A stretch of 36,490 bases of DNA from Candidatus Aenigmatarchaeota archaeon (GCA_016187365.1 JACPJX010000024.1:1-36490), one strand, 5' to 3'. Counted from the first letter of the stretch, positions 8,945 through 23,087 are shown. Notes: generated from the sequence alone by a model not told the origin. Numbers and translations: made by a program.

Positions 8945-8988
8945 AAGCTATTTATAACCTCAAAATCATTTATTTTTCAGGTGATTGA

Positions 8989-9165
8989 ATGGCGGAGATT
9001 CTCGTCGTGAGGAGCAAGGTGAAGGGCCTTGTGAAAAAGAAGAAGATGAACATGGGCGCTGACGCTGCGGAGGCGCTGAGCAGGGAAGTCGCAAAGCTCG
9101 TTGACAAGGCTGCCGAGCGCGCGAAAGCGAACAGAAGGAGCACGATAAAGGCCAGGGACATCTGA
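8989..9165 (+). CDS. small histone-fold-like protein (DUF1931 / Aq_328-type), 58 aa; not in the ORF track
   Basis: My translation: MAEILVVRSKVKGLVKKKKMNMGADAAEALSREVAKLVDKAAERAKANRRSTIKARDI*. AGGTGA sits 5-10 nt upstream of the ATG, a TTTATAA box lies near 8951, and a T-rich tract follows the stop. The pattern V.SKVK....K....M..DA.EAL...V..L...A..RAKAN.R.T.KARD fits the short archaeal histone-fold-like family. The track only lists the antisense 71-aa shadow ORF (8970-9185). Confidence 0.6.
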   Translation: MAEILVVRSKVKGLVKKKKMNMGADAAEALSREVAKLVDKAAERAKANRRSTIKARDI

Positions 9166-9167
9166 AA

Positions 9168-9180
9168 TTTGTTTTTGTTT
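9168..9180 (+). terminator. oligo-T tract downstream of the small histone-fold-like gene
   Basis: TTTGTTTTTGTTT lies 3 nt after the stop codon. Archaeal intrinsic termination uses T-runs. Confidence 0.4.
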
Positions 9181-9182
9181 AT

Positions 9183-9242
9183 CACAGGAATTCAGTTTAA
9201 TACTAGACCTTCAGGTCGTTCATGCTATACCGAATTCCTGTG
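9183..9242. repeat. perfect 11-bp inverted repeat (CACAGGAATTC ... GAATTCCTGTG) with a 38-nt loop containing a nested GACC-TTCA-GGTC hairpin
   Basis: Read directly: arms at 9183-9193 and 9232-9242. It lies between two convergent genes. Confidence 0.6.
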
Positions 9243-9272
9243 GAAATGCCTCTGGTTTTAGCCAGAAGATGT

Positions 9273-9479
9273 TCACCCTATGTAATCCTCTTCTTTGCCG
9301 TCATCTTTTTCGTTTTCTTCCGTTGTTTCTTCTTCAACTACTTCATCTTTGACTGCCTTTGCCTTTTTCCGCCTTATCCTTTCAACGGGGCCTAAGTATT
9401 CCGATGTGACCTTTCCGCCTCTCCTTATCGACTTATAGTAGTATTTCCTTCCGTTTATAGTCTTGACGTGCCTGTTCAT
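9273..9479 (-). CDS. hypothetical small protein, basic N-terminal half and acidic C-terminal tail
   Basis: 68 aa: MNRHVKTINGRKYYYKSIRRGGKVTSEYLGP... followed by VVEEETTEENEKDDGKEEDYIG. Starts 27 nt downstream of the polB stop on the same strand, with a TTTATA-like box in the gap. Confidence 0.5.
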   Translation of the reverse strand: MNRHVKTINGRKYYYKSIRRGGKVTSEYLGPVERIRRKKAKAVKDEVVEEETTEENEKDDGKEEDYIG

Positions 9480-9506: not shown

Positions 9507-12500
9507 TTACTTAATTATGAGCTTTTTTCCGGTGCTGCCATGATATCCGAACAGGAGTTCGCCGCCGCACTCGCATAAGCCGCGCAACGGCATCCTCTGG
9601 TATGACTTGCTGCATTTCGAGCACAAGATTTCCTCCCAGTTGCTCAGCGGCTGCTCTTTTTTGTAGTCGACGGTTATCTCGTGCTTCATTTTGCGCTTTG
9701 CCCCTGTGAGTATGTCGCTGATGCTTGACTGCCTGCCCCCGCCAAGAAGTTCGCTCCTCTCGACGCCGACGGCGTTCAGTATCCTTTCCACCGGCGGGAG
9801 GAGCTGGCTGGATATGTAATAATCCGAGTCGATCTGCATCCCTTTCTCCCTCGCATATTTCGGGTCCTCCGCGCGCTTGGAAAGCAGGTGGTTGTTGCCC
9901 TTTATTATGACGAATCCTATCCTGTCGCCTATCTTCGGCGCGTCGTACGGGTTCCTCATTGCGAGCTTCTTCGCGACTTCTATGTGCGGCAGGATGCCGC
10001 CGTAGCTTTCCGGGCTCTTCGTGAGCCCCTTAATCACTGTCAGCTTCTCCAGCGGCATGTCGCCGCGCCTGAGATGCTCCAGCGTATTCTTGACCTCATT
10101 CATGGCCATCTGGATGTCACCCTCCTTGAGCATTATGTTTATGACCTTCATCATTACCTCGCTTACGAGGGGGCACCAGTCGCGGCGGACTGTTTCTATG
10201 CCCTTCATTTCTATGCTGTCCTTCCATGCCTCCCCGGTGTGCTCAAACTTCCATCCGGCGTACCTTTTCTTCGTGAGTATGAGGAACGTCTTGTATATCT
10301 TCTCGAACTGGAGTTCCAGATGCCCTTCTAGTTTTGAGGTGACGAATGCCGCTATCTCCTCGCCGAGCTTCCTGGCGTCGTCAAGGTTGTTCGTGTCCGT
10401 CTTCACGAATATCGAATCGGTGTCGCCGTAGACGGTCTTCGCCTGGAAGTTCTGCTCCACAAGGTCCCTTGTTTTTATTATATTCTCCCTGCCGTATGCG
10501 GTTATGCTTCCTGCGACGTCGACCATGTAAAGCCTCGCGCGTATATAGCCTGTGTATCCGTAGAACGAATTATGCAAAACCATGCCCTGTGCTGTTACGA
10601 ACATCTCGGTGTCCCTTACAGACAAATCATAGACATATTCAGAAGGCTTGGCCTTGGATATGCTGGGCTGCTGACCAAATAAGTCTCCTGATGCTATTTT
10701 CTTGCCATGGGAAGTTTTTCTTTTTGATATGCGGTACAGGCCGTCAAAGGAATTGTTCTGGACTCCTCCAAAGTCTTTTATCATTACATTTAACTGGGCT
10801 GCGAGTCTTTTGCTTGTGGTGTTCATACGGTGCACATTCTTATTGCCGTCGCCTCTGTAATATCCTTCAAGAAAGGCTTTGCGCACCGAGCTGTTTGAAT
10901 TCAAAATAAAATCAGGCACTTTCTTGGCATAGGAAGACTCGCCGCAGTTATACCTGAAAAACAGGTACAGCAATTTCATGCCCATTGTTATATCCTTATT
11001 GAATACACTGGCGTCATAGCCAAAGCATTTTTTAATCAGATGCTTTATTCGCTGCACATTTTCCTTGTCCTTGTTTGCTATTGCTGCTTTGAATGAGCCT
11101 TTTCTTTTGTGGGTGCTGCCTTCGGCCACGAACCATCCCAACAATTCTGCAAGCTCCTCATCAACGGGCTTTGCGGCCGCAGGTATTTTTCTGCGACCCT
11201 GATGCGCTCCCCCGACTGCAATAAAGGCGCGTTTCCTGATAAATTCAGGTATTCTTCCGACTTCTGTTATGGGGAGTGTGTAATAATCAGGCTCTTCGCC
11301 GGCAGCTGAAAATCTTTCGTAAAATTGAGGCAAGTCCTCGCCATCCTCTGTTATATCATATACCGGAACCATGCCACAGTTCCCGACGGTTGTTAAGCCG
11401 CTCCTGTTTATCAGATGTCCTTCCGAGCTTCTTATGATGCGCCTCTCGACATATTTCTGGAGGCTGGCAGAATCGGCGGGCCATTTTACGGAAGAAATCA
11501 TTTTTGCCCTGTTTTTTAGCCAGTTTTTCTTGTTGAGATTCAGGCTCTTTGGAACGTATAAACGAACATCCGATGTCTCCTCTTCTGGAAGCGACTTCAA
11601 AAATTCTATCCAGTCAAATTCTATTTTCTGTTCAGGCAGCGAAACCCTGCTTACCTGCGCAATAATATCATTTTCAGAAATATCTCTGCCACCCCTTTCG
11701 GCCAGTTTGTGAAACGTGCTTTTTTGCTTCCGGTTTGAAGATATGCCTTTCATCACCATAACGCTATGGTCGTCCGTTATCATCGCCTCAGCCATCGGGG
11801 TTTTTATTCTGGTCAAATCACCCTTGCTTTTATGGCGTGATATCGCGTACATCGGCTTAAAACACGATTTGTTGTGTTTCACTGAGAGTGTTTCCCATCC
11901 GGAAAGCTCTATCACCTCTGTATCGCCTAAATCTATAATCTCGTGTTTTTTTGACATATCTTCAAAAAGTTCCTCTATCTCATAAATCTGCAATTTGCCG
12001 TCGGGTCTTTTGACAACAATATCCGTATCTGCGTGCACACTGTTCGACATGTCCTTTATTGCAAGCTGCTTGGCATTCAGTATCCTTTTCATGTCCCCTG
12101 CCGCGCCTTTCATCTGCTTTCTGACAGCGGATCTGGCGTCCATGAGCGTTGACAGTATGTCTGAAAGAATTCCTGACCTGACAGAGGGCTTCACGAAGTG
12201 CGCACCACTAGGCGACGAATAACATTCCATGAGCGGCTCCCTGAGGACGGTTTCCGGCGATATGTTGAAAGTCCTCATTATGCTAGGGTACAAACTCTTG
12301 AAATCGAGGACAAGGATGCAGCCGTCGGCATGCAACCCTTTCTCCGGCTCCATGACGGTGGCGCCCTTGAGGCCGTGCTCCTCCCTTTCCCTCGCCCTCC
12401 TTGCGATCTCGCCTTTTGACGGGGCGGGCGGCATCACGTATCCCCTTTTCCTGAATTCATGAAGGACCATCGTCTCCACGCGCTTCGACTGGCCGCCGAA

Positions 12501-13655
12501 AAGGTCCTGCAGGAGAAGGCCTGAAATCTTCGCGAGCTCCATGAATTTGTCCAGCATGCCTTTCTCAACGACGAGCCTGAGCGACAGGTCGGCGTCTTTC
12601 CTTGCGTATTCAAGGAATTCCATAATCTGTTCTTTGCTCCCGTTCCACATCCCCGCCATCTGGCCATACTCGACATCACGCTTTTCGTCGCCAAGCAAAG
12701 CCTTTGCAACTGTATTCAGGTCGTATCTGGGAAACTTGAGCCATGGGTCCCTCTTCAATATCTGGTACGGATCGACAACAACCCTTCCGGGCACTATAAA
12801 TTCCTGCATCGTGCCAAACGTTTTCCCGAACGACTGTTTGTCGGACCTGCCGAAATTCGCCGGTATCTTGTTGGCCCTGAACCTTTCGAGGAGATACGGA
12901 AAATCGAAGGCGTTTATATTGTACCCCGTCATCACATCGGGATCGTATTCTTCTATCGTCCTTGCGAACTCTTCAAGCATCTCCTTTTCCGAGGAAAATC
13001 CCCTGGCGTCCTGGTGATGAAAGTTCTTGGCCAGAAACACCATAGTCTTTTTCCCCCTGAATTCCGGCCTGAAAGACATTGATATTATTATCACCGGGTC
13101 GTTCTTTGAGTCAAGCGATTTTGTCGGGTCAGACGGCAGGCATTCGATGTCTATCGACATGTATCTCAGCGGGGCATTGTCCTGCCTTTCCACCGCCTTT
13201 ATGTCGTCTGCGCTGAAAGACTGGACTTTCACGGTACTGGTCCTGACTTTCTCGCCGCTGAATTCCACCCACCTCATTCCGTACAGCCCCCTGTCCACCA
13301 TGAACCTGTACTTGAACAGTATGTCAGCCTCGTATACGCCTTTTGAATGCTGCAACAGGGACTCTCTCACAGCCGGGACGTCCTGTGGGTTGCTGAGCGT
13401 CACTTTCAGCATTTTTGTCTTGCTATCCCTGTACCCCAGAGGCTCGAATTTCTCGTCTTCCTCTATCCGCCTTATTTCCTTCATGCCCTTCACCCTGCTT
13501 TCAGTGCCTTCACTGGGCACTATGTAAAAATACGGCATGAATTTGTCATGAAAAATGCACACGGTGCCGCCGCTCTCTGTTTTTGCAAATATCCTTATGA
13601 CCGGCTTGCCGCTGTTCATGAAGTAATCAACGTCAAGTATCTGGGCCTGCATCAT
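9507..13655 (-). CDS. polB: family-B DNA polymerase (PolB) precursor with one intein and a C-terminal 4-Cys extension
   Basis: Exo I SIDIECLP, Exo II GYNINAFDFPYL, Exo III EYARKDADLSL. Motif A LDFKSLYPSI. Motif B is split as KQLAIKDMSN / SFYGYTGY. Motif C VYGDTDSIFV. 1382 aa. Confidence 0.95.
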   Translation of the reverse strand: MMQAQILDVDYFMNSGKPVIRIFAKTESGGTVCIFHDKFMPYFYIVPSEGTESRVKGMKEIRRIEEDEKFEPLGYRDSKTKMLKVTLSNPQDVPAVRESLLQHSKGVYEADILFKYRFMVDRGLYGMRWVEFSGEKVRTSTVKVQSFSADDIKAVERQDNAPLRYMSIDIECLPSDPTKSLDSKNDPVIIISMSFRPEFRGKKTMVFLAKNFHHQDARGFSSEKEMLEEFARTIEEYDPDVMTGYNINAFDFPYLLERFRANKIPANFGRSDKQSFGKTFGTMQEFIVPGRVVVDPYQILKRDPWLKFPRYDLNTVAKALLGDEKRDVEYGQMAGMWNGSKEQIMEFLEYARKDADLSLRLVVEKGMLDKFMELAKISGLLLQDLFGGQSKRVETMVLHEFRKRGYVMPPAPSKGEIARRAREREEHGLKGATVMEPEKGLHADGCILVLDFKSLYPSIMRTFNISPETVLREPLMECYSSPSGAHFVKPSVRSGILSDILSTLMDARSAVRKQMKGAAGDMKRILNAKQLAIKDMSNSVHADTDIVVKRPDGKLQIYEIEELFEDMSKKHEIIDLGDTEVIELSGWETLSVKHNKSCFKPMYAISRHKSKGDLTRIKTPMAEAMITDDHSVMVMKGISSNRKQKSTFHKLAERGGRDISENDIIAQVSRVSLPEQKIEFDWIEFLKSLPEEETSDVRLYVPKSLNLNKKNWLKNRAKMISSVKWPADSASLQKYVERRIIRSSEGHLINRSGLTTVGNCGMVPVYDITEDGEDLPQFYERFSAAGEEPDYYTLPITEVGRIPEFIRKRAFIAVGGAHQGRRKIPAAAKPVDEELAELLGWFVAEGSTHKRKGSFKAAIANKDKENVQRIKHLIKKCFGYDASVFNKDITMGMKLLYLFFRYNCGESSYAKKVPDFILNSNSSVRKAFLEGYYRGDGNKNVHRMNTTSKRLAAQLNVMIKDFGGVQNNSFDGLYRISKRKTSHGKKIASGDLFGQQPSISKAKPSEYVYDLSVRDTEMFVTAQGMVLHNSFYGYTGYIRARLYMVDVAGSITAYGRENIIKTRDLVEQNFQAKTVYGDTDSIFVKTDTNNLDDARKLGEEIAAFVTSKLEGHLELQFEKIYKTFLILTKKRYAGWKFEHTGEAWKDSIEMKGIETVRRDWCPLVSEVMMKVINIMLKEGDIQMAMNEVKNTLEHLRRGDMPLEKLTVIKGLTKSPESYGGILPHIEVAKKLAMRNPYDAPKIGDRIGFVIIKGNNHLLSKRAEDPKYAREKGMQIDSDYYISSQLLPPVERILNAVGVERSELLGGGRQSSISDILTGAKRKMKHEITVDYKKEQPLSNWEEILCSKCSKSYQRMPLRGLCECGGELLFGYHGSTGKKLIIK
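10569..12041 (-). mobile_element. intein (491 aa) with LAGLIDADG homing-endonuclease domain, inserted in PolB motif B (pol-b site)
   Basis: Begins SVHADTD (Ser1), has block-B-like ITDDH, and ends MVLHN followed by the +1 Ser of SFYGY. Removing it restores K...NSFYGY. Two LAGLIDADG motifs: LAELLGWFVAEGS and AFLEGYYRGDGNK. The stretch is visibly more AT-rich than the flanking extein DNA. Confidence 0.85.
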
Positions 13656-14743
13656 TCCACCTTCGCAAATTCAGCAACCCGGCTTGAGAAATCCACTACG
13701 ACGGGCCTGAAATCCGACATAATAGAGCCGGAGTTGACGATTGTCACGGACTTGTAATTCGTTATGCCGGGCACGTGGCTGTGGCCTATATGGACGATGT
13801 CCGGGACCTCTTCGATGACCATGAAATCTTCCGGTATTATTGCGGAGGGCCTTCCCATATGCCTTTTTTTCAGCATATCGTGCGGCGCCTTGTGCATCAT
13901 CAGCACCTTTATCCCGTTTATTTCTATCATGGCCGGATTGCTCACTGAAACTATGTTTTTTTCCCTGAAATCCAGGGGCATCTGGGGGCATCCTTCCGAG
14001 TCCCTTTCCCCGGGACACGCGTAAAAATTCTTCGATGGCATCCTTTTTGCGAATTTCTCCAGTTCCGCTGGGGCCCCTATGTCGCCGGCGACAAAAAGAT
14101 TTTTTATGTCGCTTCTTTCAAACCATGAGAAGAACCTGTCGGCATCGCTTTCGGGCGCCTCGTCTAGATGCAGGTCAGAGACGAAGCATGCTTTTCCGCG
14201 GCCTTTGGCCGGCGTTCTTATCGGTATGTCCGGAAACAGGACTTCCTTGCCGAAAAGAACCTTCCCTCCTGTTACCACGCGCATTGCGACCACGTCATCT
14301 ATTTCTACTCCTTCGGCATCCTTTGGCTCGAATATCACGGGGACATTTGTCGTCATGTCCTCGACATCGAGTATTTTCCTCCCTTCGTCTTCCTTTATTT
14401 CGCGCACTATTCCTATGATGCACGCGTCATTGCGCATCGAATCAATCTTGTTCAGGGATATGAAATCCTTCTGGATCCTTGCAAGTATTACACCCTTCAT
14501 TTTCTCGTACTTCGACGTGTAAAATTTCACGAAATCCTCCGTCGTGATTTCGCTTTTTCTGGACTGAAAATTTTTTATCACCTTTATCCTGTCCTTCAGC
14601 ACAAAATTGCGGGCGTCGATGACAAAATCCCCCGAAACCACGTCAAAATCGTCGCTTGTTTTTGAAAGAAATTCCAGAGCATCTGGCGTGAGGAGAAATC
14701 CCCTGCGAAAATAGTCGTTCACGGTTTCCTGCATTTGCCACAC
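13652..14743 (-). CDS. dp1: DP1-like protein (DNA polymerase II/PolD small-subunit family: OB fold + calcineurin-like phosphoesterase)
   Basis: N-terminal FLLTPDALEFL helix region. OB-like ACIIGIVREI...ILDVEDMTTNVPVIF. PDE motifs FVSDLHLD, AGDIG, PGERD (in place of GNHD), MMHKA, IGHSHVP. GTG start at 14743 or ATG at 14734. The stop overlaps the polB ATG (ATGA at 13652-13655). Confidence 0.8.
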   Translation of the reverse strand: MWQMQETVNDYFRRGFLLTPDALEFLSKTSDDFDVVSGDFVIDARNFVLKDRIKVIKNFQSRKSEITTEDFVKFYTSKYEKMKGVILARIQKDFISLNKIDSMRNDACIIGIVREIKEDEGRKILDVEDMTTNVPVIFEPKDAEGVEIDDVVAMRVVTGGKVLFGKEVLFPDIPIRTPAKGRGKACFVSDLHLDEAPESDADRFFSWFERSDIKNLFVAGDIGAPAELEKFAKRMPSKNFYACPGERDSEGCPQMPLDFREKNIVSVSNPAMIEINGIKVLMMHKAPHDMLKKRHMGRPSAIIPEDFMVIEEVPDIVHIGHSHVPGITNYKSVTIVNSGSIMSDFRPVVVDFSSRVAEFAKVE

Positions 14744-14802
14744 CCGGTGTATCTATAGTTCCGCAAGGAAATAAAAGGGTATTATACCTTGCGAACTATC
14801 TG

Positions 14803-14970
14803 CAAAAGACAAAGTCTTTTGAGATGTCAAAGAGTAAACTCTTTGCACATATGTGAAACAAGTCATAATATGATGAATTATTTACTTGTTTCACTATAGT
14901 GTTACCGAAAGAATTTATAATGAAATCTCAAAAGAGCATCGCTCTTTTGCAGAAAGCCTCCGGCTTTTGC
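14803..14970. repeat. cluster of related short palindromes/hairpins in the cdc6-dp1 intergenic region
   Basis: CAAAAGAC-aaa-GTCTTTTG (14803-14821). CAAAGAG-taaa-CTCTTTG (14828-14845). GTGAAACAAGT-20 nt-ACTTGTTTCAC (14853-14894). CAAAAGAGC-atc-GCTCTTTTG (14929-14949). GCAGAAAGCC-tcc-GGCTTTTGC (14949-14970, one bulge). Confidence 0.7.
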
Positions 14971-14974
14971 AAAC

Positions 14975-16195
14975 TCAGGCGGAGAACCTTTCCGCAAGTA
15001 TTGCGTCAACCTTCTGGGCTGCGTTGTCGTTTATCGCGAGGCGTATCTCCCTCGTCCTTCCGTACCGCCCGTTGGATACCACCTTTGCGGTTATTATCCC
15101 CAGCATGTCGAGCTCTGCTATGAGATCACTTATCCTCCTCTGGGTCAGCGGCTTCATCCCGACAGAGGCGCATATGCCGGCATAGGCGTCGAACACGTCG
15201 CCGGTCAGCATCCTCCTGTCGGACCACTGCTTCTGCAGGGCCGTTTTCTGGCTGATCTTTATTATGGAATGGAGGACCGCCTGCGACTGCCTTGGCTGCG
15301 ACTTCACGGTCTCCACTATCCTGTCCATGTCTATCTTGTATTCCGCCATGTCGACATGCCTCTCTTCCACAATGCCGTCACCGAGCCTGTCTGCCATCTC
15401 GCCGGCAACCCTCAGAAGGTCGAGCGCCCTCCTCGCGTCACCGTGCTCCTGCGCGGCGAGCGCAGCGCACTTTCCAAGTACGGAGTCGCCGACGCTGCCG
15501 GTGGCAAACCCTGCAGATGCGCGCTCCTCCAGTATGTCCTTCAGCTGCGCGGCATTGTAAGGCTTGAATATTATCTCTTCTTCGGACAGCGATGATTTGA
15601 CCCTGAGGTCGAGGGCTTCCCTGAACGAGAGGTCGTTGGTTATGCCTATTATCATAATATGCGACTGCTTCAGTTCGGAATTTATCCTCGTGAGGTTGTA
15701 AAGGAAGTCGTCGCCTATTTTCCTGAACAGGGCGTCGATTTCATCAAGAACTATAATGACCTCGTTCTTTCCCGAGTCTATTTTCTCGAAGAATTTCCTG
15801 TAAAGGACGTCCGTCGGCAGGCCGGTGTCTGGGACAGTCTCGCCAAACTCCCTGAGCAACTGGGCAAAAAGCCTGTATTCGGTGTCGGCAATCTTTTTCA
15901 TCTTGCAGTTGATGTAGATCGGCTTTATGTCCCTTCCGTGGGTTCCCAGTATTTCCACAAGCTGGCCCAGGACGTATTTTGTGCATATCGTCTTGCCTGT
16001 TCCGCATGTCCCGTAGACGAAGATGTTGTTTGAATGGAACCCCTTGAGGACAGGTGCTATTATAGAACCCAGGATCTGTATTTCCTCGCCGCGGTGCTGT
16101 ATCCTTTCCGGCACAAAGTTTGAAGAAAGCGTTCTTTTATCGCGAAACACGCTGTGTTTTTGGATGTATTGTGAAAATATGTTCTGCTCATTCAT
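14975..16195 (-). CDS. cdc6: Orc1/Cdc6 replication initiator
   Basis: Walker A VYGTCGTGKT, Walker B IIVLDEID, an arginine-finger region, and a C-terminal winged helix (ISDLIAELDMLGIITAKV...GRYGRTREI). Confidence 0.95.
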   Translation of the reverse strand: MNEQNIFSQYIQKHSVFRDKRTLSSNFVPERIQHRGEEIQILGSIIAPVLKGFHSNNIFVYGTCGTGKTICTKYVLGQLVEILGTHGRDIKPIYINCKMKKIADTEYRLFAQLLREFGETVPDTGLPTDVLYRKFFEKIDSGKNEVIIVLDEIDALFRKIGDDFLYNLTRINSELKQSHIMIIGITNDLSFREALDLRVKSSLSEEEIIFKPYNAAQLKDILEERASAGFATGSVGDSVLGKCAALAAQEHGDARRALDLLRVAGEMADRLGDGIVEERHVDMAEYKIDMDRIVETVKSQPRQSQAVLHSIIKISQKTALQKQWSDRRMLTGDVFDAYAGICASVGMKPLTQRRISDLIAELDMLGIITAKVVSNGRYGRTREIRLAINDNAAQKVDAILAERFSA

Positions 16196-16232
16196 ACCAA
16201 CACCCCACCTACCGGCCAGACGTTACCCGGCA

Positions 16233-16240
16233 TTTTATAA
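16233..16240 (-). promoter_or_regulatory. TATA-box candidate for orc1/cdc6
   Basis: Minus-strand TTATAAAA lies about 38 nt upstream of the ATG at 16195, with a GGTGG-rich SD-like tract between them. Confidence 0.4.
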
Positions 16241-16306
16241 CCTTCAAAATCTGCAGAGGAACTGGTTCCTTTGTATAAAGCGCATCTTTTTGCAGATTTA
16301 CCCCGA

Positions 16307-16507
16307 TTTCAAATGGAACTTACCCATCTTTCCTGTGGAAATATCCTCCGTTTCTTCTGGAATAATTTTCAGGGTAGCACTATTTCTTCCGGCCGGTATT
16401 TAAACATTCTTTGTCTTGAAGAACTTCTTTTCAAAATATAGCATTGGGTGGTGGAAAGACCCCATTGTTTCATGTGGAACTGTAACCGATTGAAAGTTCT
16501 ATGGAAT
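16307..16507 (+). repeat. ORB/mini-ORB-like repeats
   Basis: TTTCAAATGGAAC (16307-16319). TTTCCTGTGGAAA (16329-16341, a perfect TTTCC-TGT-GGAAA dyad). GTGGTGGAAAG (16448-16458). TTTCATGTGGAAC (16468-16480). GTTCTATGGAAT (16496-16507). A related CTCCATGGGAAA lies at 16789-16800, beyond the AT-rich block. Confidence 0.5.
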
Positions 16508-16846
16508 ATGTAAAATAATTCCTCCCAAAACCAGAAAATTGTTCCGGGAAGGTCATGAAATACCCAATAAATGTTTTTAACCTACAAAAATTTTCAGTTT
16601 GCCATAACAACCACCCTAAAAATATTTTATGAAATATAAATGAAATAATATATTATAAAATTTCTATTATAATTATCATGAAAGTTTATATATCAGGCAT
16701 GTCAATAGAAGAAAAGAGAATATTTATTCTATTTATGGGAACGGAAAAAATTATCTATACAAAATCTCCCAGCCACAATCTACACGGCCTCCATGGGAAA
16801 TTATAGGGTGTCTGTGTTGCAATAAATTCGTTGTCGGTCGGATTGA

Positions 16847-16854
16847 TTTAAATA
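16847..16854 (+). promoter_or_regulatory. TATA-box candidate giving a leaderless transcript for the 262-aa orphan gene
   Basis: TTTAAATA is centred about 28 nt upstream of the ATG at 16878. No SD-like sequence lies between them. Confidence 0.4.
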
Positions 16855-16877
16855 CGCTTTCATCATATCGGGCAAAT

Positions 16878-17666
16878 ATGCCATATTCTGAAAGATACCT
16901 AAGGCCTACTGCAAAGCGAGTAAGGAATTATTTAGCTGATGAATTGTTCGGTATAGAAGGGCAAAGCAGATGGCGTATTCTCGATTTAAGATGGAAAGAC
17001 AGCCAAAGACTGTACAGAAGAATCGGGCGCCACCGCGGAGACACGGCCCGGGCAAGAAGAGATATAGCAAGAATGGACGCAGATTCTATGTATTGTTCTT
17101 ATACTGGAGATATGGATCTGGATACAGATTATATCGTATTCGTGAATGACGCTACAGAAGCCACCGCTGTGCGTTTGGGTGAAGAAATGACTCATGGAGA
17201 ACATATGACAACACACATCAGAAATCTCGGCGCCGTCAGCCGCTATACGGAAAGGTTTTCTGGTACAACAACGGAATTCATGGGGTTTCTCGGATTAAGA
17301 AGTGTAGAAAGAGAAAATAACGGTATAACCTTTGATTACTTTGATTATACCGGCCCCGACGTTTTAAATCCTATACTCGATTTAACCCGGGATGCAGAGC
17401 ATTACGTAGGATATTCGGTTTCAGACCAGTTAATAAATTCTAGAAGACGTATAAATTATAGGGATTTGTTCCATGCTGACAGCCAGGCTGTTGTATGGGA
17501 TATTGTAAAAAGTCTGATACGGCCTAGGATAAGAGTTTTTATAGAACCGGAAAAATATTGCCAGCTCGTGGTGGACGCCTATAACTCGTTGTACGAAGGT
17601 GTTTTGGAAAGAGCGGAATTAGACGCCGGTATCGAAATATCGAAGAAAAAAAGGAAGAAACAATAA
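16878..17666 (+). CDS. hypothetical protein (no family recognised), origin-adjacent
   Basis: 262-aa uninterrupted ORF with a Lys-rich C-terminus (ISKKKRKKQ) and an Arg-rich N-terminal third. Composition is AT-richer than the neighbouring core genes (23 G+C in its first 60 nt). Confidence 0.55.
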   Translation: MPYSERYLRPTAKRVRNYLADELFGIEGQSRWRILDLRWKDSQRLYRRIGRHRGDTARARRDIARMDADSMYCSYTGDMDLDTDYIVFVNDATEATAVRLGEEMTHGEHMTTHIRNLGAVSRYTERFSGTTTEFMGFLGLRSVERENNGITFDYFDYTGPDVLNPILDLTRDAEHYVGYSVSDQLINSRRRINYRDLFHADSQAVVWDIVKSLIRPRIRVFIEPEKYCQLVVDAYNSLYEGVLERAELDAGIEISKKKRKKQ

Positions 17667-17675
17667 ACCGCTCGG

Positions 17676-18086
17676 CTATTCATCCAACTCGAACTTCATC
17701 CCGTAGTGTATAAGACCGGAATCGCCGTCTTCAAAGAGCTTCCTGAAGACCGTATGGACCTTTTTTCCTATACTGATTTTTGAAGTGTCGCCTACAACCT
17801 GTCCTGCCACCATCGGCCCCTCCTCAAGTTCGACTATAGCAATCATATAAGGGACGTACTTCTCGAACCCCACAGGCGCCGTATGGTTTTCCGTGTAGGT
17901 TAAGATGACCCCCCTGCCGGAAAGCTTTTTGTCGGCGGTTTTTTTGTGGCAATCCTGGCAGTACGGCCTGCCCGGGTAGAATATCTTCCTGCATTCAGCG
18001 CACTCGGTGCCCATGAAGTTGTACCTGCCTTTCTTCGCCCTCCACGGCATCGAGACCGAAGTGTTATGCGGCATGATAACCACCAT
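17676..18086 (-). CDS. DUF35 OB-fold / zinc-ribbon protein (scaffold of the archaeal thiolase-HMG-CoA synthase complex)
   Basis: CAEC...x...CQDCH rubredoxin-like ribbon followed by an OB-fold segment (IVELEEGPMVAGQVV). Last gene of the HMGCS-thiolase-DUF35 operon. Confidence 0.85.
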   Translation of the reverse strand: MVVIMPHNTSVSMPWRAKKGRYNFMGTECAECRKIFYPGRPYCQDCHKKTADKKLSGRGVILTYTENHTAPVGFEKYVPYMIAIVELEEGPMVAGQVVGDTSKISIGKKVHTVFRKLFEDGDSGLIHYGMKFELDE

Positions 18087-18107
18087 TTTTGATACAGTAT
18101 TTGTTGT

Positions 18108-19262
18108 TCATTCATCAACACCAAGTATGTTCACGACTGCCGTGGCCCCGGAGCCGCCTATGTTAAGGTTCATGCCGTATTTCACACCTTTCAACTGGTT
18201 GTGCGAATCGCCGCGCAGCTGCCTCGTTATGTCGGCAATCTGGCGCACGCCAGTGGCGCCTACAGGGTGCCCTATTGCTTTCAGGCCTCCTGTAGTGTTT
18301 ACCGGAACGGAACCGTTGAGTGAAACCCCCCCGCGCTCCACGAATTTTCCGCCCTCACCCTTCCTGCAGAAGTTGAGATCTTCTATCGCTATTATCTCGT
18401 TTATCGAGAAGCAGTCATGGACCTCGGCAAAATTTATGTCCGTTATCTTCAGGCCTGCCTGGTCCAGGGCCTTCCTTGCGGCGAGTTTTGTCGCCTGTAT
18501 CTCAGTCAGGGACTGCCTGTCGTGCAAAGCCAGCGTATCCGACGCCTGGCCGCTGCCAAGCACCTTTACAGGCCTTTCAATCTTATTTTTCATTTTTTCC
18601 GAAACCACTACGAGAGCAGCGGCGCCGTCAGTTATAGGCGAGCAGTCGAGAACATTAAGAGGCGAAGAAATCACAGAGGAATTCATGACATCGCCCACCG
18701 TTATGGGGTTCTGGAACTGCGCATACTTGTTGCCAACCGCATTCCCATGATTGATGACGCTTACCATGGCCATCTGCTCGCGCGTCGTCCCGTATTCGTG
18801 CATGTGGCGCCTGGCGATGAGGGCGTAAAGGCTTGCAAAAGTCAGGCCGATTGAAGATTCCCATTCCTGGTCGCCTGCAGCGGCCAAGGTCATGACAGCT
18901 TCCGGGGTCCTGACGTCTGTCATCTTCTCCACCCCTATCACGAGCGCCGCATCCATATGGCCGGATTTTATGGCGTGAATGGCGTTCCTGAATGCTATGC
19001 TGCCGGAAGCGCACGCACCCTCATATCGGCTCGCTTCGGCATGTATGCCGAGGCTGTCTGCCGCCAGGGCGCCCAAGTGCTCCTGGCCCACATATCTTCC
19101 TGCCGACATGTTGCCTACAAAAATGCCGCCTATGGAATCTTTTTCCATGCCGGCGTCACCGAGCGCGGATATTCCGGATTCAGCCATCAGGTCGCGGAGC
19201 GATCTGTCCCAGAGTTCCCCGAATTTTGTCTGGCCGACACCGGCGATGTAAACTTCTGTCAT
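18108..19262 (-). CDS. acetyl-CoA C-acetyltransferase (archaeal thiolase)
   Basis: Active-site YEGACASGS, C-terminal GHPVGATG and NIGGSG motifs. The start overlaps the HMGCS stop by 4 nt. Confidence 0.9.
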   Translation of the reverse strand: MTEVYIAGVGQTKFGELWDRSLRDLMAESGISALGDAGMEKDSIGGIFVGNMSAGRYVGQEHLGALAADSLGIHAEASRYEGACASGSIAFRNAIHAIKSGHMDAALVIGVEKMTDVRTPEAVMTLAAAGDQEWESSIGLTFASLYALIARRHMHEYGTTREQMAMVSVINHGNAVGNKYAQFQNPITVGDVMNSSVISSPLNVLDCSPITDGAAALVVVSEKMKNKIERPVKVLGSGQASDTLALHDRQSLTEIQATKLAARKALDQAGLKITDINFAEVHDCFSINEIIAIEDLNFCRKGEGGKFVERGGVSLNGSVPVNTTGGLKAIGHPVGATGVRQIADITRQLRGDSHNQLKGVKYGMNLNIGGSGATAVVNILGVDE

Positions 19263-20296
19263 AATTTTATCTTGCCCCTCAGTTTTGCATAATTCCCGTA
19301 ACTGACATAAGACTTCCTGCCGACGTAGAATTCAGTCCTCGGCGCCCTGTCCCTGACTTCTTCTATCCTGTCCGTGACGCGCACCGAAAATGAATCGGCG
19401 CCGGCGCCGGAACCGTAAGACGTCATGAGTATTCTGTCGCCAGGACCCGCGTTGTCGAGAATGTCTGCAAGAACAAGCATCGAAGCGCCGGAATACGTGT
19501 TTCCGATTTTCTGCACGAGAAGGTTGAATTTCAACTGTTCATGGGAGAATCCAAGGATCTTGCCGGCCCTCATGGGGAACTTTCCGTTTGGCGTATGAAA
19601 TGCCACATAAGAATAGTCGGAGGGCTTCGCCCCTATTTTTTCCATCATGCCTTTGGTGCATGAGACAAGATGATGAAAATATGCCGGCTCCCCCGTAAAT
19701 CTGCCCCCATGCTTCGGATAGTGCTGGCCCTCGCGCCTCCAGAAATCCGGCGTGTCCGTGGTGTAAGAGAACATCCCTTCAATCACTGCAACAGGTTTCC
19801 TGCCTATGACAAACGCCGCCCCGCCTGCTGCGGCCGTATATTCAAGCGCGTCCCCCGGCCGCCCCTGCGCGGTGTCGGCCCCTATTGCCATGCCGTATTC
19901 AATCTCGCCGGCCTTTGCCAGGCCGTAGCACGTCTGCATGCCGGCAGTTCCGGCCTTGCAGGCAAATTCGTAGTCAGCGACAAGAACATTCGGGGTCATC
20001 CCGAGCGCATCAGCCACCACGGTGCCCGACGGCTTCACGGCATACGGATGGCTCTCGCTCCCGATGAAAAGCGCGCCTACCGCCTCCCCATCTATTCCGG
20101 CGCGCAGAAGCGCGTTTCTTCCGGCCTCGGCGCTTATCGTTATCGTGTCCTCGTCCATTTCAGGCACGCTTTTTTCCTCTATGAGAAGCCCTTTTTTGAT
20201 TGCGCCGGCATCCTGTCCCCACACACCGGCGATGTCCTCAACCCTTATCCGTAGCCTGGGTATGTATGCGCCATACCCGGAAATGCCTATCTCCAT
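19259..20296 (-). CDS. hydroxymethylglutaryl-CoA synthase (archaeal type)
   Basis: GISGYGAYIPRLRI N-terminus, catalytic-Cys context YEFACKAGTAG, and SYGSGAG near the C-terminus. Confidence 0.9.
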   Translation of the reverse strand: MEIGISGYGAYIPRLRIRVEDIAGVWGQDAGAIKKGLLIEEKSVPEMDEDTITISAEAGRNALLRAGIDGEAVGALFIGSESHPYAVKPSGTVVADALGMTPNVLVADYEFACKAGTAGMQTCYGLAKAGEIEYGMAIGADTAQGRPGDALEYTAAAGGAAFVIGRKPVAVIEGMFSYTTDTPDFWRREGQHYPKHGGRFTGEPAYFHHLVSCTKGMMEKIGAKPSDYSYVAFHTPNGKFPMRAGKILGFSHEQLKFNLLVQKIGNTYSGASMLVLADILDNAGPGDRILMTSYGSGAGADSFSVRVTDRIEEVRDRAPRTEFYVGRKSYVSYGNYAKLRGKIKL

Positions 20297-21842: not shown

Positions 21843-23087
21843 TCACTTCCGCATTTCTTCCAGTATTTTCTTCGCGTGAGACACGGATATCTTCTTGTCT
21901 TCAATCATCTTAGTTGAGACAGAGACGGCCTCCTCATGAGACGCCCCGGCCGACATGGCAATGTTTTTTGCGTGGAGTTTCATGTGGCCGCGCTGGATGC
22001 CTTCCGAGACTATGGCACGCAGGGCGGCAAAGTTGTTCGCGAGCCCGACGCACGCCATGACGCACGCCAGCTCGGAGGCGCTTTTCACGCCCAGAATTTT
22101 CAGCGAAGTTCTTGCGACAGGATTCGTCTTTGTCGCGCCGCCGACGATCCCGACCGCCAGAGGCATTTTCAGTCTGCCTACAAGGTCGCCTTCCGAGTTT
22201 TTTTCGTATTCTGCAAGAGGCCTGTAGCGGCCAATTGCCGCGTAGGCATGAGCCCCCGCTTCAAGCGCGCGGAAGTCGTTTCCGGTCGCTATTGCAACTG
22301 CATCCACGCCGTTCATTATACCCTTGTTGTTCGTGGCACACCTGTAAGCGTCAACCCTGGCAAGTTCATACGCATCGAGGATTCCCTCGATAACGTCTTC
22401 GCCTATCACGTCTTTTTTCCATACGGCGGCCGCGGCGGCGAGCCTCCTGTCGGCAAGATTCGAAATTATCTTCAGCACAGCCCTTCCTCCTGTAACTTCT
22501 TCAAGATACGGCGCCACGGCCTCGCACATGCTGTTCACGCAGTTGGCGCCCATGGCGTCCACGACATTGACTATGAGGTGCACGACGACCATGGGGCCGC
22601 GGGAAGAACCGATGAGTCTTACTTCAACATCCTCGAGGCCGCCGCCAAGTTTTACCATGACGGAATCCCTGCCGTTCGCAAGTTTTTTTATGGTGCTGAT
22701 ACCGGACAATATGGACTCCCTTGCCTTGTTTGTGTCGCTTATGCCGACGAGCTGCACCTGCCCTATCATCACAGGCTGGCTGCATTCTGCACGGAAACCA
22801 CAGGGGAGCGCGAGTTTTGCCGCGTTCGAGGCCGCCGCCACAACAGACGGCTCCTCAATGCACATCGGGATGAGATATTTCCTGCCGTTAATCACGAAAT
22901 TCACGGCTATACCGAAAGGCAGTTTCACCGTCCCTATGACGTTCTCCGACATCATTTCAGCAACGGACGCATCCAGAGGGCCTTCCAGGGATTTCATGTC
23001 GCTTTCATCGAGACCAGAAAGGGCTTTTATCTTCTTGATCTTCTCATCCCGGCTGAGCTTGTGGAATCCAGTCATGTCGTTTTTCAA
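21843..23087 (-). CDS. hmgA: HMG-CoA reductase, class II
   Basis: LPFGIAVNF.INGR.YLIPMCIEEPSVVAAASNAAK is the class II (Pseudomonas mevalonii / Archaeoglobus / Thermoplasma type) signature. GATKTNP is present near the C-terminus. The track start is TTG at 23087, with an alternative ATG at 23073-23075. Confidence 0.9.
   Translation of the reverse strand: MKNDMTGFHKLSRDEKIKKIKALSGLDESDMKSLEGPLDASVAEMMSENVIGTVKLPFGIAVNFVINGRKYLIPMCIEEPSVVAAASNAAKLALPCGFRAECSQPVMIGQVQLVGISDTNKARESILSGISTIKKLANGRDSVMVKLGGGLEDVEVRLIGSSRGPMVVVHLIVNVVDAMGANCVNSMCEAVAPYLEEVTGGRAVLKIISNLADRRLAAAAAVWKKDVIGEDVIEGILDAYELARVDAYRCATNNKGIMNGVDAVAIATGNDFRALEAGAHAYAAIGRYRPLAEYEKNSEGDLVGRLKMPLAVGIVGGATKTNPVARTSLKILGVKSASELACVMACVGLANNFAALRAIVSEGIQRGHMKLHAKNIAMSAGASHEEAVSVSTKMIEDKKISVSHAKKILEEMRK

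What the first reader, a model, noticed from the sequence alone, without database searches (positions are those of the whole stretch)
9507..14743. A family-B polymerase sits in the DP2 slot of the origin-proximal cdc6-dp1 operon and is translationally coupled to the DP1-like gene
Seen: the minus-strand order is ORB/DUE region, orc1/cdc6 (16195-14975), DP1-like gene (14743-13652), PolB (13655-9507). The DP1 stop TGA (13652-13654) overlaps the PolB ATG (13653-13655). Established: in Thermococcales the origin-adjacent operon is cdc6-DP1-DP2. In archaea DP1 is known as the partner of the DP2 catalytic subunit. In eukaryotes the DP1 homologues (B-subunits) partner family-B catalytic subunits. Inference: this lineage may build a two-subunit PolB plus DP1-like replicase, an arrangement like the eukaryotic one. 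No DP2 gene lies in this window. I cannot verify novelty without a literature or database search.
Basis: partly seen in the sequence, partly recalled or inferred. Interest (0 to 1): 0.8.

Follow-up and report, generated by a model that had tools for sequence, protein, structure and literature searches.

The report
Aenigmarchaeal PolB–DP1 replicase gene cluster
Next to the replication origin of an Aenigmarchaeota genome, a family-B DNA polymerase ending in a zinc finger borrowed from the PolD large subunit sits beside a catalytically dead PolD small subunit; this eukaryote-like two-subunit replicase is real, but it was described in 2020 and its subunit contact was shown experimentally in 2025.

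Summary
On the minus strand lie an ORB/AT-rich origin region, orc1/cdc6, a DP1-like gene and a 1382-aa PolB whose start overlaps the DP1 stop. No DP2 lies in the window.

The window is a complete contig of a Candidatus Aenigmarchaeota MAG.

- **PolB:** it carries a 491-aa intein in motif B, intact exonuclease and polymerase motifs, and a C-terminal Cys4 finger. The best matches of that finger are the DP1-docking Zn-III finger of DP2.
- **DP1-like protein:** it folds like DP1 (TM 0.74) but lacks the motif III histidine (H451 in P. abyssi). That histidine survives in only 1 of 36 relatives.
- **Gene order:** cdc6-DP1 adjacency holds in 36 of 36 related species loci. PolB follows DP1 on the same strand in 29 of 33 informative loci.
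- **Stop/start overlap:** this is not conserved. The median gap is about 100 nt.

Kazlauskas et al. 2020 described the B6-aenigma1 PolB, inactive DP1 and missing DP2. A 2025 Nat Ecol Evol paper showed the DP1–PolB-CTD interaction by AlphaFold3 and yeast two-hybrid.

I did not find two things in those texts: the phylum-wide conserved cluster, and a conserved 60–70-aa gene directly after PolB.

The parts
16196..16877 (.). Putative replication origin. It contains ORB-like repeats at 16306-16318, 16328-16340, 16350-16362 and 16467-16479 (minus strand) and 16789-16801 (plus strand). These flank an AT-rich, DUE-like stretch at about 16620-16730.
   Evidence: Pattern search gave 15 hits in the window against 4.4 expected, with 5 of them here. 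Direct repeats were found. The 16001-17000 kilobase is 37.5% GC. The sequence was read. Origin activity itself is inferred.
14975..16195 (-). orc1/cdc6 initiator gene (406 aa; MBI2579574.1)
   Evidence: Pfam Cdc6_C, Cdc6_lid and AAA; NCBIfam ORC1-type at E 4e-141. It lies directly upstream of DP1 in 36 of 36 related loci.
14744..14974 (-). cdc6-DP1 spacer. It holds a terminator-like hairpin (14929-14949), a perfect 11-bp inverted repeat (14852-14892) and TATA-like AT-rich boxes. This is a possible separate promoter for dp1-polB.
   Evidence: The function is inferred only.
13652..14734 (-). DP1-like subunit, resembling a eukaryotic B-subunit (360 aa from the ATG at 14734; MBI2579573.1). It has a small N-terminal domain, an OB fold and a PDE domain. 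Motif III reads GERD instead of GNHD.
   Evidence: NCBIfam PolD small-subunit models reach E 1.6e-41 but score below their cut-offs. PDB DP1 matches at E 1.8e-18 for the sequence and 4.7e-27 for the profile. The AlphaFold model has pLDDT 91. Foldseek top hits are P. abyssi DP1 (TM 0.74), followed by the Pol epsilon, delta and alpha B-subunits. Motif table.
13650..13662 (-). Gene junction: an AGGTGGA Shine-Dalgarno-like motif, the DP1 stop TGA (13654-13652), and PolB ATG codons at 13655-13653 and 13652-13650.
   Evidence: annotated start; L001 junction.
12042..13655 (-). PolB N-extein (residues 1-538): N-terminal domain, 3'-5' exonuclease domain (DIE, NINAFD, YARKD) and palm motif A (DFKSLYPS), up to KDMSN of motif B.
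10569..12041 (-). Intein of 491 aa (residues 539-1029) with a LAGLIDADG homing endonuclease, inserted in polymerase motif B (KDMSN|S...HN|SFYG).
   Evidence: Pfam Intein_splicing and LAGLIDADG_3, and TIGR01443 intein C-terminus. Ser1, TDDH, HN and Ser+1 are present. A same-site intein occurs in L004, L009, L010 and L020.
9642..10568 (-). PolB C-extein: rest of motif B, motif C (YGDTDS), the thumb, and the linker to the C-terminal finger.
9510..9641 (-). PolB C-terminal Zn-finger module (residues 1339-1382; Cys1345, Cys1348, Cys1361, Cys1363; loop YQRMPL). It is homologous to the DP1-docking Zn-III finger of the PolD large subunit.
   Evidence: NCBIfam DP2 models NF011302, NF003103 and TIGR00354 match residues 1342-1378. 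The family profile hits DP2 chains 6knb_B (1127-1158), 6hms_B and 6t8h_B as the top PDB matches. All four Cys are invariant in 20 relatives.
9273..9479 (-). Conserved 68-aa gene 27 nt after the PolB stop (MBI2579571.1, hypothetical). It has a three-stranded beta N-domain, a basic then acidic tail, and an invariant C-terminal YIG. It may be an accessory factor.
   Evidence: Present next to PolB in 21 related loci. Alignment; model; no Pfam family.

Best explanation
The region is the origin-proximal replication gene cluster of an Aenigmarchaeota genome. It encodes a heterodimeric, eukaryote-like replicase.

**Shown by the sequence analysis**
- After its intein splices out, the 891-aa PolB is a complete proofreading family-B polymerase.
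- Its last roughly 45 residues form a Cys4 zinc finger descended from the Zn-III finger of the PolD large subunit (DP2).
- The neighbouring DP1-like protein keeps the OB-PDE fold of DP1 but has lost the catalytic histidine of the nuclease site.

**Inferred**
- In PolD, the Zn-III finger inserts a basic RRxP loop into an acidic groove between the OB and PDE domains of DP1. The PolB finger is inferred to dock in the same way.
- The DP1-like protein therefore acts as a non-catalytic B-subunit bound to the PolB finger, while proofreading is done by PolB's own exonuclease.
- The subunit probably also links the polymerase to other replisome parts.
- The two genes are co-transcribed, and in this genome the stop/start overlap favours equimolar synthesis.
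For: **Source.** The window is a contig of a Candidatus Aenigmarchaeota MAG.

**PolB.** All exonuclease and polymerase motifs are present in the spliced sequence, and all intein splicing residues are present.

**C-terminal finger.**
- Three DP2 models match residues 1342-1378.
- The profile of 20 relatives has DP2 Zn-III as its top PDB hits. The alignment is EEFvCkkCkksYRRlPLsGvCeCGGe against QEFRCVKCNTKYRRPPLTGKCpKCGGK.
- The four Cys, the second Arg and the Pro are invariant or nearly so.
- In P. abyssi PolD this loop (KxRRxP; R1131 and R1132) docks into the DP1 OB/PDE groove. A 20-aa Zn-III peptide binds DP1 with nanomolar affinity (PMC6355029).

**DP1-like protein.**
- The model has pLDDT 91 and matches P. 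abyssi DP1 best (TM 0.74, E 2e-26), then the eukaryotic B-subunits.
- The motif III His equals P. abyssi H451. The PDB entry 6hmf for the H451 variant is titled 'proof-reading deficient'.
- That position is Arg here, and His survives in only 1 of 36 relatives. The other metal-ligand positions are eroded in 25-35% of relatives.

**Synteny.** cdc6-DP1 adjacency holds in 36 of 36 loci. PolB follows on the same strand in 29 of 33 informative species-level loci, and the finger is present in all 27 that reach the PolB C-terminus.

**No DP2 nearby.** There is no DP2-sized ORF in 554 kb around DP1 across the 36 loci.

**Literature.** PMC7544198 reports DP2 absent and DP1 inactive in Aenigmarchaeota, with a B6-aenigma1 finger derived from DP2 zfIII. 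PMC12680538 reports that Aenigmatarchaeota lack DP2 but keep DP1, and that DP1 binds PolB-DP2CTD in AlphaFold3 and yeast two-hybrid tests.
Against: - The complete MAG could not be searched, so absence of DP2 in this particular genome rests on the literature for the phylum.
- The finger module is short. PolB ends 17 residues after the CGG that follows the last cysteine, so the helical bundle that also contacts DP1 in PolD is missing. The 2025 paper calls this CTD 'degenerate'.
- A single-sequence search of 1.8 billion proteins with the last 83 residues found only PolB C-termini and short fragments at E<=1e-3, and no full-length DP2. The DP2 link is therefore at profile level.
- In the window the first Arg of the RRxP loop is Gln.
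- No complex prediction could be run here.
- The tight overlap is not conserved.
- In two loci PolB is inverted, and in two (L029, L035) it is not next to DP1.
Confidence: 0.85

Rival explanations
1. The adjacency has no bearing on assembly. The DP1-like protein still partners a canonical DP2 encoded elsewhere in the genome. PolB is an independent monomeric polymerase whose C-terminal finger serves some other contact, such as DNA, PCNA or primase.
For: The rest of the MAG was not searchable. cdc6-DP1 linkage is ancient and exists in archaea that use PolD (PMC2643942). The DP2 Zn-III region also lies near DNA in PolD (PMC6355029).
Against: The nuclease histidine essential for PolD proofreading is lost in 35 of 36 relatives, and other ligand positions are decaying. 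That is not expected for a working PolD. Two papers report DP2 missing from the phylum, and one reports a yeast two-hybrid interaction of DP1 with the finger-bearing PolB. No DP2-sized ORF lies within 10 kb of DP1 in any of 36 loci.
Confidence: 0.05
2. The PolB gene is a recent insertion from a virus or other mobile element that happened to land beside DP1 in this genome.
For: PMC7544198 suggests a viral provenance for the B6 group. The gene carries a mobile intein.
Against: The same gene order occurs in 29 species-level representatives, including the flanking thiolase/HMG-CoA synthase genes on one side and the TctA and NAC genes on the other, with protein identities of only 44-73%. The arrangement therefore dates to early in the phylum. 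No integrase, repeats or composition break flank the gene. Any mobile origin would be ancient, not local.
Confidence: 0.04
3. The DP1-like protein keeps an enzymatic role as a metal-dependent phosphoesterase or nuclease, using the retained motif I, II, IV and V ligands. It would then not be a purely structural B-subunit.
For: In the window protein, D187, H189, D218, H281, H318 and H320 are all present. Pfam scores it as Metallophos_2.
Against: The motif III Asn-His pair is Glu-Arg here. In about a third of relatives the whole motif is deleted. Every other ligand position is substituted in 1 to 12 of 36 relatives. This pattern indicates relaxed selection on catalysis.
Confidence: 0.1

Closest known systems
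B6-aenigma1 PolB with Aenigma-type inactive DP1 (Kazlauskas et al. 2020, NAR, PMC7544198)
   Same: It shares the phylum, a family-B polymerase with one C-terminal Cys4 motif most similar to DP2 Zn-III, a DP1 homologue with an inactivated nuclease site, and DP2 reported missing. The window is another genome of this described case.
   Different: None in kind. The text and held supplements of that paper contain no mention of gene adjacency, operon or cdc6 linkage. The window's MAG accessions were not found there, but the stored supplement table is truncated, so its absence from their data set could not be confirmed.
Aenigmatarchaeota and Baldrarchaeia PolB-DP2CTD plus DP1 complex (Nat Ecol Evol 2025, PMC12680538)
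   Same: The proposed complex is the same. Interaction of DP1 with the CTD-bearing PolB was shown by AlphaFold3 and yeast two-hybrid for Aenigmatarchaeota.
   Different: The Baldrarchaeial PolB3 carries a full DP2 CTD. The Aenigmatarchaeota version, including this one, is only the finger and is called 'degenerate' there. I found no discussion there of the origin-proximal cluster for this phylum.
Archaeal PolD (DP1-DP2), e.g. P. abyssi 6T8H and 6HMS
   Same: The small subunit has the same fold (TM 0.74). The Zn-III finger with the RRxP loop is the docking element. cdc6-DP1 linkage next to oriC is shared.
   Different: The catalytic subunit here is a family-B polymerase, not the double-psi beta-barrel DP2. 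The DP1 nuclease site is dead. The helical bundle of the DP2 CTD is absent.
Eukaryotic Pol delta, alpha and epsilon catalytic-subunit CTD with B-subunit
   Same: A family-B catalytic subunit is tethered through a C-terminal metal-binding module to an inactivated OB-PDE B-subunit. The extein scores almost as high against human Pol delta (353 bits) as against Thermococcales PolB (360 bits).
   Different: The eukaryotic CTDs have two metal sites (CysA and CysB) and a helical bundle, whereas this one has a single finger. There are no further subunits of the p66/p12 type, and the genes are linked in one cluster.
Thermococcales oriC-cdc6-DP1-DP2 replication island
   Same: It has the same order of origin, initiator and small subunit, followed by the catalytic subunit.
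   Different: The catalytic gene is PolB. Outside Thermococcales, DP1 and DP2 are usually not adjacent (PMC2643942), so whether the ancestor of this phylum had DP2 at this position is unknown.

Membership tests
B6-aenigma1 PolB (Kazlauskas 2020) | Family-B polymerase with exonuclease and polymerase domains | tested here: met
   Pfam DNA_pol_B at E 8e-112 and DNA_pol_B_exo1 at E 6e-37. Exo I-III and Pol A-C motifs are present in the spliced sequence.
B6-aenigma1 PolB (Kazlauskas 2020) | [quoted passage not shown] | tested here: met
   There is a single CxxC-x12-CxC. DP2 models match residues 1342-1378. The profile's top PDB hits are DP2 Zn-III at E 1.5e-6.
B6-aenigma1 PolB (Kazlauskas 2020) | Encoded by Aenigmarchaeota | tested here: met
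   Exact matches to MBI2579572-4 of a Candidatus Aenigmarchaeota MAG. All 36 related loci that carry a taxon name are Aenigmatarchaeota.
B6-aenigma1 PolB (Kazlauskas 2020) | Phylogenetic placement in group B6 of the Delta-like clade | tested here: inconclusive
   No reference set of PolB groups was available, so no tree was built. PDB scores put human Pol delta (353 bits) level with Thermococcales PolB (360 bits). That is compatible but not decisive.
DP1 / eukaryotic B-subunit family, inactive Aenigma-type | OB fold followed by a calcineurin-like PDE domain, homologous to DP1 | tested here: met
   Sequence match at E 1.8e-18 and profile match at E 4.7e-27 to PDB DP1. The model has pLDDT 91. 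Foldseek gives DP1 at TM 0.74, then B-subunits at TM about 0.6.
DP1 / eukaryotic B-subunit family, inactive Aenigma-type | Nuclease active site inactivated | tested here: met
   Motif III GNHD reads GERD. The equivalent of P. abyssi H451 is Arg, and His is kept in only 1 of 36 relatives. Activity itself was not measured.
DP1 / eukaryotic B-subunit family, inactive Aenigma-type | Physical binding to the C-terminal module of the catalytic subunit | not testable with these tools
Yeast two-hybrid and AlphaFold3 results for the lineage are published in PMC12680538.
Canonical PolD holoenzyme | DP2 large subunit present | tested here: not met
   No DP2 in the window. None within 10 kb of DP1 in 36 loci. 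The whole genome was not searchable; absence across the phylum comes from PMC7544198 and PMC12680538.
Canonical PolD holoenzyme | DP1 with a complete Mre11-like active site | tested here: not met
   All NCBIfam DP1 equivalog scores are far below their cut-offs (142.8 bits against a cut-off of 445, for example).
Archaeal oriC next to cdc6 | Clustered ORB repeats in both orientations around an AT-rich unwinding element, adjacent to orc1/cdc6 | tested here: met
   Origin firing is not testable here.
Intein at the pol-b site of archaeal PolB | Splicing blocks (Ser/Cys1, TxxH, HN, Ser/Cys/Thr+1) and insertion in motif B | tested here: met
   The sequence shows SVHADTD..., TDDH...VLHN|S, and an insertion in KDMSN|SFYG. 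Pfam and TIGR intein models match.

The most novel reading that the evidence does not exclude
The cluster may be a fossil of an in-place domain swap. In this reading, a PolB gene recombined into an ancestral oriC-cdc6-dp1-dp2 island and replaced everything of dp2 except the 3' segment encoding the Zn-III finger. That would explain why PolB sits exactly after dp1 across the phylum. In addition, the conserved 60-70-aa gene directly after PolB may be a previously unrecognised third component of this replicase. It has a beta-sheet N-domain, an acidic tail and an invariant C-terminal YIG.
Probability: 0.2. Interest if true: 0.55.

Novelty: already known. Interest (0 to 1): 0.3.

Why it matters
A family-B polymerase tethered by a DP2-derived zinc finger to an inactivated DP1 is the arrangement that all eukaryotic replicative polymerases share. 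Aenigmatarchaeota show that this chimera can arise and work in an archaeon. That point has already been made in the literature and tested by yeast two-hybrid.

This analysis adds context only:
- the module is fixed in a phylum-wide origin-cdc6-dp1-polB cluster;
- the nuclease site of the small subunit is visibly decaying across species;
- a small conserved gene travels with PolB;
- public annotation hides the module, naming PolB 'ribonuclease H-like domain-containing protein' and the DP1-like protein 'metallophosphoesterase family protein'.

Tried and rejected
- **Complex prediction.** A DP1-linker-PolB-CTD fusion was submitted for structure prediction to test the contact.
- **Supplements of PMC7544198.** I searched for AR5, OIN85950, JWKQ and Aenigmarchaeota to tie the window to their B6 list. 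No hits were returned; the table is stored truncated.
- **Database-scale link to DP2.** A single-sequence search of 1.8 billion representatives with the last 83 residues found 23 hits at E<=1e-3. All were C-terminal ends of PolB-length proteins or short fragments, and none was a full-length DP2. The DP2 homology therefore rests on profile and HMM evidence.
- **RNA genes.** Rfam and tRNA scans of the window found nothing.
- **ORF 8970-9185 (minus strand).** I rejected it as a gene. It is the shadow of a plus-strand 58-aa DUF1931-like gene.
- **The 68-aa gene.** Pfam found no family even at E<=1. The large homologue search returned only 10 close relatives.
- **Translational coupling as a family trait.** Rejected after measuring the junctions in 29 loci.
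- **DP2 in L029 and L035.** I checked whether these loci, which lack PolB after DP1, carry DP2 there instead. They carry an FAD-dependent reductase gene (both loci), followed in L035 by SecF and SecD genes.
- **Recent mobile-element insertion of PolB.** Rejected on conserved flanking synteny.


Full report
**Observation**

- cdc6 (14975-16195) matches Cdc6_C, Cdc6_lid and the ORC1-type NCBIfam model at E 4e-141.
- The next ORF (13652-14743 from a GTG; 13652-14734 from the annotated ATG) matches five NCBIfam models of the PolD small subunit. The best reaches E 1.6e-41, but all score far below the curated cut-offs. It also matches Pfam Metallophos_2.
- The 1382-aa ORF (9507-13655) is a family-B polymerase (DNA_pol_B at E 8e-112; exonuclease domain at E 6e-37).

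The junction reads GGTGGAATGATGCAG. The DP1 stop TGA overlaps the first ATG by four bases, or the second ATG by one. The public protein (1381 aa) and the closest relative (TAAATGCAG) favour the second ATG.

Apart from PolB, no ORF exceeds 548 aa. The window genes scanned against Pfam gave no PolD large-subunit match.

The cdc6-upstream spacer falls in the window's lowest-GC kilobase, 37.5%. It holds five ORB-core matches in both orientations around an AT-rich stretch. The whole window has 15 matches against 4.4 expected.

**Source**

The DP1-like protein, cdc6, PolB and three neighbours are exact matches to MBI2579570-MBI2579575 of a Candidatus Aenigmarchaeota MAG. The longest contig on record is 36490 nt, so the window is that whole contig. 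NCBI names the polymerase 'ribonuclease H-like domain-containing protein' and the small subunit 'metallophosphoesterase family protein'.

**PolB anatomy**

Residues 539-1029 are an intein with a LAGLIDADG endonuclease, inserted in motif B (KDMSN|S...VLHN|SFYG). Ser1, TDDH, HN and Ser+1 are all present.

The spliced 891-aa protein has:
- Exo I (DIE), Exo II (NINAFD) and Exo III (YARKD);
- motif A (DFKSLYPS), motif B (KDMSNSFYG) and motif C (YGDTDS).

It scores 360 bits against Thermococcales PolB and 353 bits against human Pol delta.

Beyond the thumb lies an extension that ends in CSKCSKSYQRMPLRGLCECGG plus 17 residues.
- Three NCBIfam PolD large-subunit models match residues 1342-1378, each near the model's C-terminal end (E 2.6e-5, 2.7e-4, 4.3e-3).
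- A profile of this tail from 20 relatives has DP2 chains as its three best PDB hits, aligned on the Zn-III finger (6knb_B 1127-1158 at E 1.5e-6; 6hms_B and 6t8h_B at E 3e-5).
- The four Cys are invariant. The second Arg, the Pro and the Leu of the YRRMPL loop are nearly invariant.

In the PolD structure this loop (KxRRxP; R1131 and R1132) sits in an acidic groove between the OB and PDE domains of DP1. A 20-residue Zn-III peptide binds DP1 with nanomolar affinity (PMC6355029).

Two limits apply. The helical bundle of the DP2 CTD is absent here. A single-sequence search of 1.8 billion proteins reached only other PolB C-termini and short fragments, so the DP2 link is at profile level.

**DP1-like protein**

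It matches PDB DP1 chains at E 1.8e-18 (sequence) and E 4.7e-27 (family profile). The AlphaFold model has pLDDT 91 and shows a small N-terminal domain, a long helix, an OB fold and a PDE domain. Foldseek ranks P. abyssi DP1 first (TM 0.74, E 2e-26), followed by the human Pol epsilon, delta and alpha B-subunits at TM about 0.6.

Aligned to DP1, motif III GNHD reads GERD. The His corresponds to P. abyssi H451 by counting. PDB entry 6hmf for the H451 variant is titled 'proof-reading deficient'.

Across 36 related loci:
- this His survives once (L029);
- the motif is deleted in about a third of loci;
- every other ligand position is substituted in 1 to 12 loci.

This is the pattern of a fold kept for structure after catalysis was lost.

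**Relatives**

A scan of one genome per GTDB species returned 36 loci. Every locus that carries a taxon name is Aenigmatarchaeota.
- cdc6 lies directly upstream of DP1 in all 36.
- PolB follows DP1 on the same strand in 29.
- PolB is inverted in 2 (L014, L024).
- PolB is absent from the available downstream DNA in 2 (L029, L035). An FAD-dependent reductase gene lies there in both, followed in L035 by SecF and SecD genes.
- 3 contigs end too early to tell.
- The finger is present in all 27 PolB genes that reach their C-terminus.

The flanks are also conserved. HMG-CoA synthase, thiolase and a DUF35-type gene lie beyond the origin. A 60-70-aa gene, TctA and NAC lie beyond PolB. This argues against a recent insertion.

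The DP1-PolB gap ranges from -32 to 850 nt, with a median of about 100 nt. Only 4 of 29 loci have a gap of 2 nt or less. The overlap seen in the window is therefore local, not a family trait.

No DP2-sized ORF occurs in the 554 kb of these loci.

**Literature**

Kazlauskas et al. 2020 (PMC7544198) report the following:
- they noted that DP2 is absent from most Aenigmarchaeota;
- they found the accompanying DP1 inactive;
- they proposed that PolB replaced DP2.

A 2025 Nat Ecol Evol paper (PMC12680538) reports the following:
- the Aenigmatarchaeota CTD is 'degenerate';
- the two-finger 'B6-aenigma2' sequences are reassigned to Baldrarchaeia;
- DP1 interacts with the CTD-bearing PolB in both clades, by AlphaFold3 and yeast two-hybrid.

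Text searches of both papers, and of the held supplements of the first, gave no mention of adjacency, operon or cdc6 linkage for this phylum. The second paper does refer to an external file of gene neighbourhoods.

Berthon et al. 2008 (PMC2643942) show that oriC-cdc6-DP1 linkage is widespread in Euryarchaeota, whereas DP1 and DP2 are not generally adjacent. 'DP2 slot' is therefore exact only against Thermococcales.

**Mechanism and verdict**

- Shown: the gene order, the overlap, the intact PolB catalytic motifs, the DP2-type finger, the DP1 fold, the dead nuclease site, and conservation across the phylum.
- Inferred: the finger docks in the OB/PDE groove of the DP1-like subunit, which acts as a structural B-subunit. 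This is backed by published yeast two-hybrid data for the lineage.
- Inferred: dp1 and polB are co-transcribed. A hairpin and a 240-nt AT-rich spacer after cdc6 suggest that cdc6 is a separate transcription unit here.

The finding is real and biologically important, but it is already known. The residual novelty is contextual.

Noticed in passing
window 9273-9479 (minus strand); also e.g. L001 13808-14008 and L010 7141-7347: A 54-71-aa gene lies right after PolB in the window and 21 related loci. It has an invariant N-terminal H(I/V)KTINGRKYYY.S.R.G.KVTS.Y.GPV, predicted to form a three-stranded beta sheet (pLDDT about 90). A basic then acidic disordered tail follows, ending in an invariant YIG. 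It has no Pfam family. It might be an accessory factor of the replicase.
   Followed up: partly
window 8989-9165 (plus strand): This is a 58-aa DUF1931-like (histone-fold-like) gene, MBI2579570.1, with a weak Pfam hit at E 0.009. It is conserved near the PolB cluster in about 10 related loci. The minus-strand ORF 8970-9185 is only its shadow.
   Followed up: partly
window 10569-12041; L004, L009, L010, L020; L014, L024: The motif B intein is present in only 4 of the 29 related PolB genes, at 67-68% identity. That is as high as or higher than the flanking extein identity (55-66%). L014 and L024 instead carry a different intein in motif C. This is the patchy pattern expected of homing inteins.
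   Followed up: partly
L029 and L035 (also L028): In a divergent sub-clade, PolB is not next to DP1. An FAD-dependent reductase gene follows DP1 in L029 and L035, with SecF and SecD after it in L035. The L029 DP1 is the only one of 36 that keeps the motif III histidine (GEHD). Whether these genomes keep a DP2 or place PolB elsewhere is unknown.
   Followed up: partly
L006 + L012; L014 + L036: Two MAGs (RIFCSPLOWO2_01_FULL_48_10 and SMAG_U8047) each contribute two clearly different cdc6-DP1-PolB loci. Either the bins mix two populations or these genomes have two such origin clusters.
   Followed up: no
window 14852-14892 and 14929-14949: A perfect 11-bp inverted repeat (GTGAAACAAGT, 19 nt, ACTTGTTTCAC) and a terminator-like hairpin lie in the unusually long (240 nt) cdc6-DP1 spacer. 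They may be a regulatory site or a transcript boundary.
   Followed up: no
window 9233-9245 (minus strand): An isolated ORB-like sequence, TTCCACAGGAATT (one mismatch), lies between the 68-aa gene and the DUF1931-like gene. It may be a chance match.
   Followed up: no
window 17676-20296 (minus strand), conserved in 24-25 loci: The DUF35-type OB protein, thiolase and HMG-CoA synthase trio, with HMG-CoA reductase at 21843-23087, sits on the other side of the origin. The trio keeps this position across the phylum.
   Followed up: no
window 9507-14734: Public annotation names PolB 'ribonuclease H-like domain-containing protein' and the DP1-like protein 'metallophosphoesterase family protein'. Keyword searches for this replicase in this MAG would therefore miss both.
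   Followed up: yes
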